Origin: a virus | Taxonomy: Duplodnaviria; Heunggongvirae; Uroviricota; Caudoviricetes | IMG/VR virus record: IMGVR_UViG_3300014970_000032 | Coordinates: 1-16,413 of that record | Length of the DNA stretch: 16,413 nt | Direction: 5' to 3' (one strand) | Part shown: one piece after another, positions 1,916-7,812 of the stretch | Layout of the letters: each line of letters begins with the position of its first letter | How positions within the stretch are numbered: the stretch's first letter is position 1 | The notes under the pieces: model-generated | Told to the model about the DNA's origin: nothing | Databases searched by the model: none | The model's input: the letters and a program-made list of their open reading frames with translations, nothing else | Made by a program: the position numbers and the translations under genes

Positions 1916-1940
1916 AAAGAAAAAAGGCCGCAGAGCGGCC
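1916..1940. repeat. Left copy of 25-bp direct repeat (aaagaaaaaaggccgcagagcggcc), putative attL core; duplicate of the ihfA terminator hairpin
   Basis: Identical 25-mer at 13984..14008. Flanking sequence differs on the inner side (island) and is core-like on the outer side (btuC upstream). Contains the GGCCGC-agag-CGGCC stem-loop. Confidence 0.7.
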
Positions 1941-4341: not shown

Positions 4342-5187
4342 ATGACAAAGCCTTCTCATTTTAGAACCCCTCTTCGTTATCCGGGAGGTAAGGCAAAATT
4401 CTTGCCACATATTGAACAAATACTCCGCAACAATGATCTCATTGGTGGATGTTATGCTGAACCTTATGCAGGTGGAGCCGGTGTAGCATTAGGTTTGCTC
4501 CTTAACGGTCTTGTTGAAAATATCTTCATAAATGATATTGATCCTGCCCTTTATTCTTTTTGGTTTGCAGTGGTTAATCATAACGATCTGTTATGTGAAA
4601 TGATTGATGAAGTTCCTGTGACTATTGAAAATTGGCATACTCAAAAGGAGATACTCCTAAACAATGATAAATATAGTATGCTTGAAGTCGCATTATCAAC
4701 TTTCTTTTTAAATAGAACAAACCGTTCAGGAATACTTAAGGCTGGCGTTATTGGAGGGAAAGAACAAAAAGGACCATGGAAGTTAGATGCAAGATTCAAC
4801 AAAAAAGAGTTAATTAAAAGGATTGAACTAATTGGTGCATATAAGGAGAAAATTTACGTATCGAATTTTGATGCTGTAGATTTTCTGCTACACCAAAAAG
4901 CATTGCTACCCCAAAATAGTCTAATATATCTTGATCCACCTTATTATGTTAAAGGAGCAGAGTTATATAGAAATTTTTATAAACATGATGATCATGTAAA
5001 AATCGCTAATACACTACGGGAAATTCAACTACCTTGGGTTGTGTCTTATGACAATGTGCCTGAAATAAAAAGCATATATCATGAATTCAACATGACTGAT
5101 TATACGCTTAATTATACTGCACAAGATAAGAAAAAAGGTCTAGAAATTATCATTTATAATCATGGTATAAAAATCCCTGACATTTAA
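4342..5187 (+). CDS. N6-adenine DNA methyltransferase, Dam-like (D12 class)
   Basis: 281 aa. N-terminal RYPGGKAKFLP...EPYAGGAGVAL (SAM-binding FxGxG-type motif) and catalytic DPPY tetrapeptide (IYLDPPYY), the arrangement typical of Dam-family enzymes. Markedly AT-rich. Confidence 0.85.
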   Translation: MTKPSHFRTPLRYPGGKAKFLPHIEQILRNNDLIGGCYAEPYAGGAGVALGLLLNGLVENIFINDIDPALYSFWFAVVNHNDLLCEMIDEVPVTIENWHTQKEILLNNDKYSMLEVALSTFFLNRTNRSGILKAGVIGGKEQKGPWKLDARFNKKELIKRIELIGAYKEKIYVSNFDAVDFLLHQKALLPQNSLIYLDPPYYVKGAELYRNFYKHDDHVKIANTLREIQLPWVVSYDNVPEIKSIYHEFNMTDYTLNYTAQDKKKGLEIIIYNHGIKIPDI

Positions 5188-5204
5188 ATTTAAGGATGAT
5201 ATAG

Positions 5205-6902
5205 ATGATTAAAGAAATTAGTTTTAAAAAATTTAAGAAACTGATAGATATTGACTTTTCATTCAATGAAGACATCAATATAATATCAGGAACCAATGGG
5301 ACATGTAAGACAACATTGCTTCATTTAATTAGCAATGGTTTCCAAATGCCACCATCTCGATCACAAAATTATTCAAATAGTAATTGTGTTAGAGTTATAA
5401 AATCTATAAACAAAATAGCCAACCCCAAAATGGAAGCAATTGTTAGGGAATCAAAAAATTACACCGATCCGGCAGAGGGAACAAAAGGTGTGTTATTTTC
5501 CATTAACTATTTGGATCATAGCACACTAGACTTCAGAAAGCACAACTCAAAAAATCCAGACGAAGCGCAACGGTATGCTATCAAACCAGTATACCCACGC
5601 GGAAAAGAAAAACAATCACTTCCAGCTAAACCAGTTTTATATCTTGGATTATCGCGACTATTCCCGATTGGTGAAACTAAAGACGACGCCCTTACAAAAA
5701 TTCCGTTAAACCTACCAGAAGAGTATGTTGGTTATATATCGAAAATATATAATGAACTTTTGGGCATTAATATTATAAATATAGAATCAAACAATATCGG
5801 AGATTTTAAAGCTGGCCCATTATTTGATACCGATAACCCAGCAATTGATTCTAATACCATATCATCCGGGGAAGACAATATATTCATTATAATCAAGGCA
5901 TTAGTTAGCCTTAGGTATTATTTTGAATCACTTATTCAATCCACTGATCAAAAAGAAAGCATTCTGTTAATAGATGAATTTGATGCCACTTTACATCCTT
6001 CTTTACAGATAAGATTATTAGATAAAATTTATCAATACGCAAAAGATTATAAGATTCAAGTATTTTTCACAACGCACAGTCTGACATTGCTAGAATATGC
6101 TTTTCATAAAAAATACCATGTTGTCTATCTAATTAACAATATTACAAAGGCTCTGCTTTTAGATAATCCTGACATATTAAAAATAACAATGTATCTGAAA
6201 ACACAAACAAAGGATGAGATATACACAAGGAACAAGATACCAGTTTTCACGGAAGATGAAGAAGCTCGCTTTTTATTTAATGAAATACTTGGTTATTGGA
6301 TAAGCAAATATCCAAATTTTGCTATAGTTAGTAATTCATTTCACTTAATTGATTGTTTCATTGGTGCAGACAATTTAAAAACTATTTTTAATGATTCTCA
6401 TCTTAAGGAAACCTCGTTAAAATCAATTTGTATTCTTGATGGAGATCACAGCCCTGAGGATCAGAGAGGAATTATATCACTGCCGGGAGAAAAAGCTCCA
6501 GAACAATTGATATTTGAGCATTGTGAGCACCTTTATAATACCGACGACTCTTCCTTCTGGGAAAATCAGGATATAATTAACAATGGTTTTTCGAAAGAGT
6601 TATACTTACTCAAGATACGTCCTCAACTACAATCAATTGAAACTGAAATTCAGAAAAGAAAAGACAACCATGAGTCTACATCCGGTTTAAGAAGAAAATT
6701 AAATAAGAAAATATTCAATCAGCATATTGAATTCTTTAGAATGATTACAAGAAACTGGTTAGACAAACCAGAAAATCAGAAATCTCTCCAGTATTTTTAC
6801 AATGGATTACGATCCTTATTCTACCGGGTTACACCAACAAACGGCATTGACAGAAAAATTTGGGATTTTGACTATAACAAAATCATTAAAGAGGATAAAT
6901 AA
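5205..6902 (+). CDS. ABC-type (SMC/OLD-like) ATPase with putative C-terminal TOPRIM-like nuclease domain
   Basis: 565 aa. Walker A GTNGTCKTT (aa ~29-37), signature-like ISSGE, Walker B ILLIDEFDATLHP, H-loop FFTTHS. C-terminal acidic motifs PVFTEDEEA and ICILDGDHSPED (DxD) fit a TOPRIM-type metal site. SD AAGGA 8 nt before the ATG, 17 bp after the MTase stop (operon). Confidence 0.8.
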   Translation: MIKEISFKKFKKLIDIDFSFNEDINIISGTNGTCKTTLLHLISNGFQMPPSRSQNYSNSNCVRVIKSINKIANPKMEAIVRESKNYTDPAEGTKGVLFSINYLDHSTLDFRKHNSKNPDEAQRYAIKPVYPRGKEKQSLPAKPVLYLGLSRLFPIGETKDDALTKIPLNLPEEYVGYISKIYNELLGINIINIESNNIGDFKAGPLFDTDNPAIDSNTISSGEDNIFIIIKALVSLRYYFESLIQSTDQKESILLIDEFDATLHPSLQIRLLDKIYQYAKDYKIQVFFTTHSLTLLEYAFHKKYHVVYLINNITKALLLDNPDILKITMYLKTQTKDEIYTRNKIPVFTEDEEARFLFNEILGYWISKYPNFAIVSNSFHLIDCFIGADNLKTIFNDSHLKETSLKSICILDGDHSPEDQRGIISLPGEKAPEQLIFEHCEHLYNTDDSSFWENQDIINNGFSKELYLLKIRPQLQSIETEIQKRKDNHESTSGLRRKLNKKIFNQHIEFFRMITRNWLDKPENQKSLQYFYNGLRSLFYRVTPTNGIDRKIWDFDYNKIIKEDK

Positions 6903-6980
6903 TGTACTCTAATAGAATATAAACATCAAAGCTATATTCTTTACACATATCAAGAGTAAAAAATAATTTAACTTTATACA

Positions 6981-7018
6981 TAACGACCTCTTTTACAAAT
7001 AAGTAGAAAAGGTCGTTA
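6981..7018 (+). terminator. Imperfect stem-loop downstream of the ATPase gene (possible terminator)
   Basis: taacgacctcttttac / gtagaaaaggtcgtta inverted repeat about 80 bp after the stop codon; no clean U-tract. Confidence 0.3.
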
Positions 7019-7141
7019 TAACTCTCATCTCCATAGCATGTAATTTTCTTTGCATATTTTCACATAACAGTCAGGGATGTATTTATAAGCAACGTCGTAT
7101 ACATAGGCTCAATTTTTCTATAAATAAACACTCCGTTCGGT

Positions 7142-7170
7142 TTGCACAATAGTGCACAAATTTGCACAAT
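7142..7170. repeat. Three direct TGCACAA repeats at exact 10-bp spacing
   Basis: TGCACAA at 7143-7149, 7153-7159 and 7163-7169, followed by a T7 run; helical-turn phasing suggests a protein-binding array. Confidence 0.5.
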
Positions 7171-7593
7171 TTTTTTGAACGACTTTTTGCCCTTCCGGCC
7201 CGCATGGCGGCTGGATCCGTCAAGGATCCGTGCGTGCACAAAAAAACGCGTTTTTTCTGCGCGCAGGTGACGGGGGAACAGCCCGCGTTTCAGGGGGTAA
7301 ATAGCATTCCCTTAACGATGTCGCAGCGACACGACAGAATGGCCGTATTTCTCACGCTGAGCGTGAAAAATACGTGAGGGATTCTGGTTTGATGGGGTGA
7401 AAGGTAAGGCCGTCAAAATCGCACTGAGGCGGCGAGAACATGCAGTCAGCGCAGTGGGATTGCGTAAGAGTCTGACCGTCGATGATGGCAATAAGCAGGA
7501 AAGCGTCGTGAAATTATCTGACTGATACAGGAGCTGGAGAGTCGGGGCATAAATTTTTTATGCCCCGGCGAAGCAGCAGACAAGCGAAGCGCG

Positions 7594-7812
7594 TCAGGAT
7601 GTGGGCTGGGTACCCGCATCCGCTTTACTGACAGCGTCGCGGGCGCGCTCAAATGAACGCGCCTGACGCTCGAGATTTTTGATCGCCCCCTGCGTTCGCT
7701 GGATGGAGTCACCAAACTGCCCCATCAGGCGGCGGGCGTTTTCGGCAGGCCGGGTCAGCCTGTCAACGGCGCTGAAAGCGACCCGGATGTCAAGAGTCTT
7801 CATTATCTGCAT
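7594..7812 (-). pseudogene. Tail tape-measure protein (T-like) N-terminal fragment
   Basis: Short ORF ...MKTLDIRVAFSAVDRLTRPAENARRLMGQF... begins overlapping the end of E' as T does in P2-like tail modules, but stops after about 70 codons. Confidence 0.45.

What the first reader, a model, noticed from the sequence alone, without database searches (positions are those of the whole stretch)
6903..7593. About 690 bp non-coding stretch packed with phased direct repeats and long palindromes
Seen in sequence: (a) TGCACAA three times at exactly 10-bp spacing (7143, 7153, 7163) followed by a T7 run; (b) GGATCCGT twice 11 bp apart (7213..7231); (c) perfect 16-bp palindrome aaaaaacgcgtttttt (7241..7256) and 10-bp palindrome ctgcgcgcag just after it; (d) 31-bp near-perfect palindrome cgtatttctcacgct-g-agcgtgaaaaatacg (7344..7374); (e) perfect 11-bp-stem hairpin cggggcataaa-ttt-tttatgccccg (7543..7567). 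No convincing ORF is present. This density of helically phased repeats and dyads suggests a cis-acting site such as an origin/iteron array, a packaging (cos-proximal) region, or a multi-operator control region for the adjacent cargo, rather than random spacer.
Basis: seen in the sequence. Interest (0 to 1): 0.45.

Follow-up and report, generated by a model that had tools for sequence, protein, structure and literature searches.

The report
Phage DNA-packaging (cos) site of a prophage remnant
The repeat- and palindrome-rich spacer is mostly the DNA-packaging (cos) site of a decayed P2-family (P88-like) prophage, flanked by the tail end of a defence-gene cassette and by the stem-loop after the lost portal gene; it is an ordinary, known kind of element, though it shows the layout of this cos type very clearly.

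Summary
All five sequence features are real, and such a density of dyads is far above chance: 4 perfect inverted repeats against 0.13 expected, reached by 0 of 500 shuffles. The stretch is not one element. It lies in a 12.1-kb remnant of a P88-like (Xuanwuvirus, P2-family) prophage.

- **6903-7139:** AT-rich tail of a PD-Lambda-5-like defence cassette.
- **7143 to about 7300:** the phage cos site.
- **About 7300-7593:** a spacer specific to the P88 lineage, ending in the stem-loop that follows the portal gene.
- **7594-7612:** the last 19 bp of the portal gene, fused by a deletion to a tape-measure fragment.

The TGCACAA boxes sit 123, 113, 103 and 31 bp left of a 19-mer, GGTGACGGGGGAACAGCCC (7266-7284). 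P2, P4 and 186 have TGCA boxes at -123/-124, -111, -101 and -29 from their experimentally mapped cohesive ends. The same layout holds in 40 portal-anchored prophage copies and in 103 viral contigs. Conservation starts abruptly at box 1 and fades near +32. A satellite-like island shares only this 160 bp with P88-like phages.

I read the boxes as terminase recognition sites, analogous to lambda cosB; that step is inferred. An origin or an operator array is not supported. This is a new member of a known kind, of low to moderate interest.

The parts
6903..7139 (+). AT-rich 3' tail of the defence cargo cassette (Dam-type methylase 4342-5187 plus AAA ATPase 5205-6902). It contains the stable hairpin 6980-7019. 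It is not part of cos.
   Evidence: It travels with the cargo: 6700-7612 is contiguous at 98.9% in an intact prophage of E. coli 1442, and 14 complete genomes cover it. Other P88-like phages lose homology left of 7140/7143. The hairpin folds at -18.7 kcal/mol, z = -6.75. GC is 0.31.
7143..7169 (+). Distal cos boxes 1-3: TGCACAA three times at 10-bp spacing, 123, 113 and 103 bp left of the cosN-like 19-mer.
   Evidence: Searches give the positions. P2, P4 and 186 have TGCA at -123/-124, -111 and -101. The register is kept in 40 portal-anchored prophage cos regions. Among 103 unique IMG/VR segments, TGCAC is at -123 in 82, at -113 in 90 and at -103 in 94.
7170..7196 (+). T7 run followed by the conserved TGA...TTTTTGCCCTTCC block. 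It is a possible bend or spacer between the distal boxes and the core.
   Evidence: Information content is 1.4-1.9 bits over the T run in both surveys. The terminator-like call GTGCACAAATTTGCAC plus T7 folds no better than shuffles, z = -0.45.
7197..7231 (+).
   Evidence: Most relatives have an inverted repeat that starts at about -70 to -64 (centre near -60) but with different sequences. Examples are CCGCC-ctgt-GGCGG, CGCCAG-tg-CTGGCG, ACCGCGCC-attccc-GGCGCGGT in P4 and CGCCAG-ag-CTGGCG in 186. The first GGATCC is specific to the P88 lineage.
7235..7241 (+). Proximal cos box 4, TGCACAA(AAAA), 31 bp left of the cosN-like 19-mer.
   Evidence: P2, P4 and 186 have TGCATTAAAA at -29. It is present in 96 of 103 IMG/VR segments. 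Information content is near 2 bits over CAAAAA.
7241..7265 (+). Core spacer with the 16-bp palindrome and the CGCGCGCA block that abuts the predicted left nick.
   Evidence: CGCGCGCA is nearly invariant, while the 10-12 bp before it vary but often keep an A-run/T-run dyad. The extended inverted repeat has arms 7231-7245 and 7251-7265.
7266..7284 (+). cosN-like 19-mer GGTGACGGGGGAACAGCCC, the predicted cohesive-end segment.
   Evidence: It matches P2 cosL GGCGAGGCGGGGAAAGCAC at 13 of 19 positions. An intermediate in E. coli ES1 matches P2 at 15/19 and the window at 17/19, and ends 187 bp before the portal stop, the spacing of the P2 19-mer's start. It is the most conserved block of the alignment. 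The exact nick positions are inferred.
7285..7300 (+). Right flank of cos, GCGTTTCAGGGGGTAA. Broad conservation and the homology to the satellite-like island both end here.
   Evidence: Conservation fades near +32. The satellite-like island's homology ends at about 7300-7308.
7344..7374 (.). 31-bp near-palindrome, specific to the P88 lineage. Its function is unknown and it is not part of the conserved cos.
   Evidence: It is absent from other lineages. In most close relatives the outer 4 pairs are broken (7344 C to T, 7371 T to G). Core changes in L015, L068, L070 and L071 are not compensated. It folds at -20.6 kcal/mol on the minus strand, z = -6.4.
7543..7567 (-). Perfect 11-bp stem-loop starting 27 nt after the portal stop. 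It occupies the position of terminators tQ of P2 and tW of 186, but has no U-tract.
   Evidence: Searches give -22 kcal/mol for the 66-nt fragment folded and z = -3.4. P2 tQ and 186 tW are annotated just after the portal stop. 7543-7597 has no substitution in 12 lineage members. The terminator scan did not call it.
7594..7612 (-). Last 19 bp, including the stop codon, of portal gene Q. The rest of the gene is deleted.
   Evidence: Homology to P88-like portal genes runs to 7612. From 7611-7613 the sequence matches the 5' part of the tape-measure gene.

Best explanation
The stretch has three parts.

**Core (7143 to about 7300).** This is the cos (DNA-packaging and cohesive-end) site of a P88-like, P2-family prophage that has since lost its replication, head and terminase genes. 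From left to right it holds:
- three TGCACAA boxes on one face of the helix;
- a T-run;
- a GC-rich dyad;
- a fourth TGCACAA box;
- a short dyad-bearing spacer;
- CGCGCGCA;
- the 19-bp segment GGTGACGGGGGAACAGCCC.

I expect the phage terminase to make staggered nicks at the 19-bp segment and so produce cohesive ends.

**Proposed mechanism (inferred).** The small terminase subunit, gpM, binds the proximal box and the three distal boxes. The DNA between them bends. This places the large subunit, gpP, on the 19-mer. The arrangement resembles R3-I1-R2-R1 of lambda cosB.

**Flanks.** Left of 7143 is the 3' tail of the neighbouring defence cassette. Right of about 7300 is a spacer specific to the P88 lineage, ending in the stem-loop that closes the portal-terminase operon.

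In this remnant cos is a relic. It could act only in trans, if a P88-like helper phage supplied terminase.

**Shown:** the homology, position, boundaries and conserved register. **Inferred:** the exact nick positions, gpM binding to the boxes, and the bend.
For: **Context.**
- Intact P88-like phages have the order replication gene A, cargo, this sequence, then portal Q and terminase P.
- The window keeps the last 19 bp of Q at 7594-7612.
- Published work places the P2-family cos and a defence hotspot between gpA and gpQ (PMC9122126; PMC13586616).

**Register.**
- TGCA boxes lie at -123, -113, -103 and -31 from 7266.
- In P2, P4 and 186, whose cohesive ends are annotated from experiment, they lie at -123/-124, -111, -101 and -29.

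**Breadth.**
- Forty non-identical portal-anchored cos regions, most from other Enterobacterales genera (52 loci fetched), align without gaps from -130 to +35.
- Conservation starts abruptly at -124/-123 and fades near +32.
- Among 103 unique IMG/VR segments, all four boxes are in register in 77 and at least three in 93.

**Boundaries from an independent element.**
- A 13-kb satellite-like island carries a Toprim primase, integrases, an Ogr/Delta protein and a P2-family capsid gene, but no annotated portal or terminase.
- Most of a 701-bp stretch of it around cos is found in 53 complete E. coli genomes.
- It shares only window 7142 to about 7305 with P88-like phages, at 81-84% identity.

**The 19-mer.**
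- It matches P2 at 13/19.
- The ES1-type intermediate matches P2 at 15/19 and the window at 17/19, and ends 187 bp before the portal stop; the start of the P2 19-mer is 186 bp from its portal stop.
- The mapped phiRSA1 end also begins GGTGAGGCGGGG (PMC5694545).

**Non-coding status.** Rfam gave no hit.
Against: - No experimental ends exist for this cos type in the collections I could search. No phage record and no IMG/VR contig begins at the 19-mer.
- The one linear P88-type record, LR595891, starts at the equivalent of 7188, which is 78 bp left of my predicted nick. I cannot explain this.
- The 13/19 match to P2 cosN is not significant by itself: 225 of 2000 shuffles reach it. The assignment rests on the shared register, the intermediates and the conservation.
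- gpM binding to the boxes is inference. I could not read Ziermann & Calendar 1990, so I do not know whether the distal boxes lie inside their minimal functional cos.
- In P2 the old-tin transcript starts 25-30 bp left of the distal boxes, so the boxes could have a second, transcriptional role there.
Confidence: 0.82

Rival explanations
1. The TGCACAA array and the dyads are a replication origin or iteron array for the island, like ori/crr of P4.
For: Short repeats in helical phase next to an A/T run look like iterons. A true iteron array (GGTTACA/TGTAACC, 13 copies) lies a few hundred bp from cos in the satellite-like island. So origins can sit near cos in such elements.
Against: P2 replicates from a nick inside gene A at 29892. 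P4 ori and crr are annotated 2-7 kb from cos. Both still carry the same TGCA box layout beside cos. The window has no A-type or alpha-type replication gene. The satellite-like island has its own separate iterons in addition to the boxes.
Confidence: 0.03
2. The region is a transcription control or insulation zone for the neighbouring cargo and the portal operon. It would hold operators for a phage regulator, plus terminators that stop read-through into or across cos.
For: In P2 the old-tin transcript starts 25-30 bp left of the distal TGCAT boxes. A terminator-like hairpin plus T7 is called at 7152-7177. Stable hairpins lie at 6980-7019 and 7543-7567, the latter where P2 and 186 have tQ and tW. 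So part of the stretch very likely does carry transcript-end signals.
Against: The boxes keep a fixed distance to the 19-mer whatever the identity or orientation of the cargo, and also in a satellite-like island with different neighbours. The 7152-7177 hairpin folds no better than shuffles, z = -0.45, and P2, P4 and 186 have no T-run there. Apart from one copy inside the cargo ATPase gene (5118), TGCACAA occurs only in cos; it is absent from the C-cox control region of the window.
Confidence: 0.1
3. The stretch is decayed coding sequence or neutral spacer, and its repeats are chance or leftovers.
For: Some annotators call small ORFs here. The palindrome at 7344-7374 is not maintained among relatives. 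About 7300-7540 is conserved only in the close lineage.
Against: No shuffle out of 500 reaches the observed dyad density. The box register is conserved across genera. The 42-aa ORF shows no coding constraint. No Pfam hit was found for the ORFs in the stretch.
Confidence: 0.05

Closest known systems
cos sites of coliphages P2 and 186 and of satellite P4 (19-nt 5' cohesive ends; the '55-bp core' of Ziermann & Calendar 1990, as cited in PMC5694545 and PMC9122126)
   Same: It sits between the gpA-side hotspot and the 3' end of portal gene Q. It has a G-rich 19-mer beginning GG(C/T)GA. A TGCA box followed by an A-run lies about 30 bp to the left, and three TGCA boxes lie 100-125 bp to the left, with the same register to within 2 bp. 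GCGC-rich flanks bracket the 19-mer. A stem-loop follows the portal stop.
   Different: The 19-mer differs from P2 at 6 of 19 positions, so the ends would not anneal with P2 or P4 ends. The boxes read TGCACAA rather than TGCAT, and are spaced 10+10 bp rather than 12+10 bp. A conserved T7 run follows box 3. Cos lies about 310 bp from the portal stop instead of about 187 bp. The stem-loop after the portal gene has no U-tract. The ends have not been mapped experimentally for this type.
lambda cos (cosN plus cosB, with gpNu1 sites R3, R2 and R1 and IHF site I1); cited from general knowledge
   Same: As a working analogy, one recognition box lies near the nick site, several more lie about 100 bp away on the same side, and a bendable segment lies between them. 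The whole spans about 125 bp on one side of the nick region.
   Different: There is no sequence similarity and the terminase small subunit belongs to a different family. The P2 family is reported to package circular monomers. Which genome end is packaged first, relative to the boxes, was not established here.
P4 ori/crr iterons (type 1 and type 2 repeats)
   Same: They are short direct repeats, some at 10-bp spacing, in a non-coding region of a P2-associated element.
   Different: The sequence and the location differ. P4 carries both its ori/crr repeats and, separately, the cos boxes.

Membership tests
P2-family cos site | It lies between the replication-gene/hotspot side and the 3' end of portal gene Q, which is transcribed towards it. 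| tested here: met
   The P88 and E. coli 1442 prophages show A, cargo, this sequence, then Q and P. The window keeps the last 19 bp of Q at 7594-7612.
P2-family cos site | A 19-nt cohesive-end segment homologous to GGCGAGGCGGGGAAAGCAC. | tested here: inconclusive
   7266-7284 matches P2 at 13/19, which alone is not significant (225 of 2000 shuffles). Supporting points: an intermediate that matches P2 at 15/19 and the window at 17/19, the same offset from the boxes as in P2, P4 and 186, and the highest conservation in the alignment.
P2-family cos site | Conserved core around the 19-mer (the '55-bp core'): a TGCA box with an A-run about 30 bp to the left, and GCGC-rich flanks. | tested here: met
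   Box 4 is at -31, against -29 in P2, P4 and 186. CGCGCGCA abuts the 19-mer. That the published core corresponds to -29 to +26 is my reading of the P2/P4 identity, not taken from the original paper.
P2-family cos site | Cleavage by terminase gives 19-nt 5' cohesive ends in virion DNA. | not testable with these tools
   No record or contig starts at the 19-mer. The linear record LR595891 starts 78 bp to the left.
P2-family cos site | It is sufficient in cis for packaging by a helper, and is shared with satellites of that helper. | tested here: inconclusive
   A satellite-like island shares only about 160 bp (window 7142 to about 7305) with P88-like phages; most of a 701-bp stretch of the island around cos is found in 53 complete E. 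coli genomes. This is strong indirect support.
Iteron-type replication origin (P4 ori/crr-like) | Repeats bound by the element's own initiator, with the initiator gene present and the repeats located at the mapped origin. | tested here: not met
   The window has no initiator gene. The P2 ori is inside gene A. P4 ori/crr lie away from cos, yet P4 has the same boxes at cos.
Intrinsic (Rho-independent) terminator | A GC-rich stem-loop followed directly by a U-tract on the transcribed strand. | tested here: not met
   7543-7567 and 6980-7019 are stable stems but have no U-tract and are not called by the scan. The only call, 7152-7177, is energetically no better than shuffles.

The most novel reading that the evidence does not exclude
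The four phased TGCA boxes (-123, -113, -103 and -31) may be the recognition module of P2-family terminases, equivalent to lambda cosB. As far as I could check, no such module has been described. The box sequence (TGCACAA versus TGCAT) and the 19-mer would then define packaging-specificity groups. Dedicated satellites would copy these groups, including a capsid-gene-carrying satellite-like island that shares only this 160-bp module with P88-like helpers. On this reading the 12.1-kb remnant in the window, which keeps int, cox, ogr and an intact cos, could still be cut or mobilised by a P88-like helper.
Probability: 0.2. Interest if true: 0.5.

Novelty: new member of a known kind. Interest (0 to 1): 0.3.

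Why it matters
The result explains a conspicuous 'mystery' spacer as a standard functional site, so no new class of element is needed.

It has three practical uses:
- It gives base-level boundaries (about -123 to +32) and a conserved box layout for the cos of the very common P88-like prophages. The cos segment 7140-7300 matches in 1,150 of the 5,426 complete E. coli genomes searched. This helps to delimit the defence hotspot next to it.
- It helps the design of cosmids or transducing particles for these helpers.
- It helps to recognise the satellites that copy the site.

It also points any binding experiment at the terminase small subunit rather than at Ogr or the repressor.

Tried and rejected
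- **P2 19-mer search.** A search with up to 3 mismatches found nothing. The homologue has 6 mismatches and was found only through the box register and intermediates.
- **A false lead.** I first thought TGCGCGC..TGACGG just right of P2 cosN matched 7258-7275, which would have put the nick at the 16-bp palindrome. I dropped this once the ungapped multi-phage alignment fixed the register.
- **Record ends.** I looked for phage records or viral contigs that end at the 19-mer, as a proxy for mapped ends, and found none. The start of LR595891 at 7188 remains unexplained, and no paper cites that accession.
- **RNA families.** Rfam at a permissive threshold gave no family.
- **Small ORFs.** 7162-7377 and 7446-7715 gave no Pfam hit. 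The 42-aa ORF failed the codon-position test. A PHROG scan failed on a coordinate slip and I did not repeat it.
- **Palindrome 7344-7374.** I looked for compensatory changes and for other copies of its half-site in the window and in P88. There was no compensation and no meaningful second copy.
- **Terminator reading of boxes 2-3 plus T7.** Rejected on energy and on its absence from P2, P4 and 186.
- **Literature.** Ziermann & Calendar 1990 is not held. The reviews and cosmid papers I could read give no internal anatomy of the P2/P4 cos. I therefore cannot say whether the distal boxes have been described before.

Full report
**1. The observation**

- TGCACAA at 7143, 7153 and 7163, followed by T7 at 7170-7176.
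- GGATCCGT at 7213 and 7224.
- The 16-bp palindrome at 7241-7256, followed by CTGCGCGCAG at 7257-7266.
- A near-palindrome with 15-nt arms at 7344-7374.
- A perfect 11-bp stem at 7543-7567.

The region holds 4 perfect inverted repeats with arms of at least 8 nt and loops of at most 8 nt. Dinucleotide-preserving shuffles gave a mean of 0.13, and none of 500 reached the observed count.

As a bare word, TGCACAA is not enriched in the window: 5 copies against 3.3 expected. The signal lies in its clustering and in its conserved position.

**2. Context**

The window is a decayed prophage inserted between btuC and ihfA.
- A 25-bp direct repeat at 1916-1940 and 13984-14008 bounds a 12.1-kb element.
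- The gene order is: integrase, C-like repressor, a cox-position ORF without family hits, a Dam-type methylase and an AAA ATPase, the stretch in question, 19 bp of portal gene Q, then fragments and genes of the tail cluster (a tape-measure 5' fragment, E', E, FII, the sheath 3' end and a gpD fragment), a 1039-aa ORF and ogr.
- The closest phages are P88 and its relatives (genus Xuanwuvirus, family Peduoviridae) at 92-98% identity.
- In intact relatives the order is replication gene A, cargo, this sequence, then portal Q and terminase P on the opposite strand.
- The window has lost gene A. It has also lost everything from Q to the tape-measure gene, through a deletion whose junction lies at 7611-7613. 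That junction is found in none of the 5,426 complete E. coli genomes searched.

**3. The stretch is composite**

Homology to P88-like phages starts at 7140-7143, exactly at the first TGCACAA, and runs to 7612.

The AT-rich 6903-7139 is shared only with prophages that carry the same methylase-ATPase cargo. One example is E. coli 1442, contiguous at 98.9% from 6700 to 7612. This part therefore belongs to the cargo cassette. Its main feature is a stable hairpin at 6980-7019 (-18.7 kcal/mol, z = -6.75).

**4. The core is the cos site**

Published work places the P2-family cos, and a defence hotspot next to it, between gpA and gpQ (PMC9122126; PMC13586616).

I compared the window with P2, 186 and P4, whose cohesive ends are annotated from experiment.
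- In those three, TGCA boxes lie at -123/-124, -111, -101 and -29 from the first base of the 19-nt end.
- In the window, TGCA lies at -123, -113, -103 and -31 from 7266.
- At 7266 the sequence reads GGTGACGGGGGAACAGCCC (coordinates corrected).

That 19-mer matches P2 at 13 of 19 positions. On its own this is weak: 225 of 2000 shuffles reach the same score. Three things support the assignment:
- It sits at the offset from the boxes that P2 predicts.
- An intermediate in the E. coli ES1 prophage, GGTGACGGGGGGAAAGCCC, matches P2 at 15/19 and the window at 17/19. It ends 187 bp before the portal stop; the start of the P2 19-mer is 186 bp from its portal stop.
- The mapped end of Ralstonia phage phiRSA1 also begins GGTGAGGCGGGG (PMC5694545).

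**5. Breadth of conservation**

*Portal-anchored loci.* Anchoring on the portal protein gave 52 loci, most from other Enterobacterales genera.
- Forty non-identical cos regions align with the window without a single gap from -130 to +35.
- They fall into two 19-mer classes: GGTGACGGGGGAACAGCCC-like and GGCGAGGCGGGGGAGCAAG-like.
- Information content rises abruptly at -124/-123 and fades near +32, which is window 7298.

*Viral contigs.* A scan of IMG/VR for the exact 19-mer gave 103 unique segments.
- TGCAC is at -123 in 82 of them, at -113 in 90, at -103 in 94 and at -31 in 96.
- All four boxes are in register in 77, and at least three in 93.

*Between the boxes.*
- The T-run after box 3 is conserved.
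- A GC-rich inverted repeat that starts at about -70 to -64 (centre near -60) is kept as a dyad, but with different sequences: CCGCC-ctgt-GGCGG, CGCCAG-tg-CTGGCG, and ACCGCGCC-attccc-GGCGCGGT in P4.
- In the window this dyad is weak (GCCCGC-ATG-GCGGC).
- The 16-bp and 10-bp palindromes lie between box 4 and the predicted nick. The CGCGCGCA part is almost invariant, and the rest varies.

**6. Independent delimitation by a satellite-like island**

E. coli C25 carries a 13-kb island between hpt and gcd. It encodes two integrases, a Toprim primase, an Icd-like protein, an Ogr/Delta protein, a P2-family major capsid protein and MazEF. No portal or terminase is annotated in it.

Its only similarity to P88-like phages is a stretch of about 160 bp, equal to window 7142 to about 7305, at 81-84% identity. 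Most of a 701-bp stretch of the island around cos is found in 53 complete E. coli genomes.

An element that depends on a helper's packaging machinery would be expected to copy exactly the cis-acting packaging signal. The copied piece coincides with the conservation boundaries found above.

**7. The rest of the stretch**

From about 7300 to 7540 the sequence is conserved only in the close P88 lineage.

*The 42-aa ORF.* It lies at 7397-7525 and is not under coding constraint. Differences fall 13:14:13 over the codon positions. There are 24 non-synonymous and 10 synonymous variants, one stop codon and two frame breaks.

*The 31-bp palindrome.* It is thermodynamically strong, but its outer pairs are broken in most relatives and the core changes are uncompensated. 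I treat it as a lineage-specific element of unknown, possibly no, function.

*The perfect hairpin at 7543-7567.* Its stem starts 27 nt after the portal stop, where P2 and 186 have terminators tQ and tW. The block 7543-7597 has no substitution in 12 lineage members, although its flanks vary. It has no U-tract, so it fails the formal definition of an intrinsic terminator. I read it as the 3'-end stem-loop of the terminase-portal operon, by position.

**8. Mechanism**

*Shown:* this is the cos region of a P2-family phage, with a conserved layout from about -123 to +32.

*Inferred:*
- Terminase makes staggered nicks at 7266-7284.
- The four TGCA boxes are recognition sites for the small subunit, gpM. 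Three of them lie on one face of the helix about 100-125 bp from the nick region, and one lies 31 bp from it.
- The T-run and the dyad between them allow a bend that brings the distal and proximal boxes together, much as R3-I1-R2-R1 do in lambda cosB.

Which genome end enters the capsid first, relative to the boxes, was not established. In this remnant there is no terminase, portal or capsid gene, so the site could act only in trans.

**9. Rivals**

*Origin or iterons.* The P2 ori nick is inside gene A. The P4 ori and crr are annotated far from cos. Both phages still have the boxes at cos. The window has no initiator gene.

*Operator or insulator.* The register is independent of the identity and orientation of the cargo. 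The only terminator-like call within the boxes is energetically no better than shuffles. A secondary transcriptional role cannot be excluded, because in P2 the old-tin transcript starts just left of the distal boxes.

*Chance or decayed coding sequence.* This is contradicted for 7143-7300. It remains the default for about 7300-7540.

**10. Caveats**

- No experimentally mapped ends exist for this cos type in the collections I searched.
- One linear record, LR595891, begins at the equivalent of 7188 for reasons I could not find.
- I could not read the original P2/P4 cos paper. Whether the distal boxes have been described before is therefore unknown to me.

**11. Verdict**

The element is a new member of a known kind. 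Interest is low to moderate, mostly for the clean base-level anatomy of a very common cos type and for the satellite-like island that copies it.

Noticed in passing
L075 (NZ_CP127314.1 4531000-4548000); L010 3440-4170: A 13-kb satellite-like island lies between hpt and gcd in E. coli C25. It carries two integrases, a Toprim primase, an Icd-like protein, a 13-copy GGTTACA/TGTAACC iteron array, a P88-type cos, an Ogr/Delta protein, a 236-aa protein without Pfam hits, a 423-aa P2-family capsid protein and MazEF. Most of a 701-bp stretch of it around cos is found in 53 complete E. coli genomes. I did not establish whether this island type has been described.
   Followed up: partly
window 7611-7613: A deletion junction fuses the last 19 bp of portal gene Q to the 5' part of the tape-measure gene on the same strand. 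No complete E. coli genome among the 5,426 searched has this junction.
   Followed up: partly
window 1916-1940 and 13984-14008: A 25-bp direct repeat, AAAGAAAAAAGGCCGCAGAGCGGCC, overlaps the ihfA terminator. It looks like attL/attR and bounds a 12.1-kb remnant, close to the 11.6 kb of P4. The remnant keeps int, a cox-position ORF, cos and ogr but has no replication gene.
   Followed up: partly
window 4342-6902: The cargo next to cos is a Dam-type methylase that matches PD-Lambda-5_B (E = 9e-122), plus a 565-aa AAA_15/AAA_21 ATPase of the PtuA/AriA/GajA type. P88-type cos sites carry conserved GATC at about -41, and the window has two (7214 and 7225). I did not examine any link between the methylase and cos.
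   Followed up: partly
window 9876-12995: An AT-rich 1039-aa ORF lies between the gpD fragment and ogr. It has no Pfam or PADLOC match. It is a candidate for an uncharacterised cargo or defence gene.
   Followed up: no
window 13582-13722: A 46-aa hydrophobic ORF (MSQKSLTAITFCVTAILIIWILHG...) lies between ogr and attR. P88 has a hok/gef-family gene annotated at a similar position after gene D.
   Followed up: no
L005 and L006 (LR595891.1 ends), equivalent to window 7187/7188: The linear record of phage P88_4B11 starts at TGCCCTTCC..., 78 bp left of the predicted nick site, and ends just after the T7 run. It may be an arbitrary circular permutation or a claimed terminus. I could not resolve this.
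   Followed up: partly
window 7543-7597: A 55-bp block, made of the hairpin plus the sequence up to the portal stop, has no substitution in 12 P88-lineage copies, although its flanks differ by 5-10%. This is stronger constraint than a plain stem-loop would need.
   Followed up: partly
L069 547-1257; L015 3547-4150; L068 and L071 from 830: In some relatives, extra genes sit between cos and the portal gene. Examples are a 236-aa CDS in E. coli F1022 and about 600 bp in a Salmonella prophage. This would be a second small insertion hotspot on the portal side of cos, as reported for phiCTX (PMC5694545).
   Followed up: no
H82: NZ_CP183151.1 10880-11040: A 129-kb E. coli plasmid carries the same cos segment at 98% identity. 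P88-like phages also encode ParB-like partition proteins in their hotspot.
   Followed up: no
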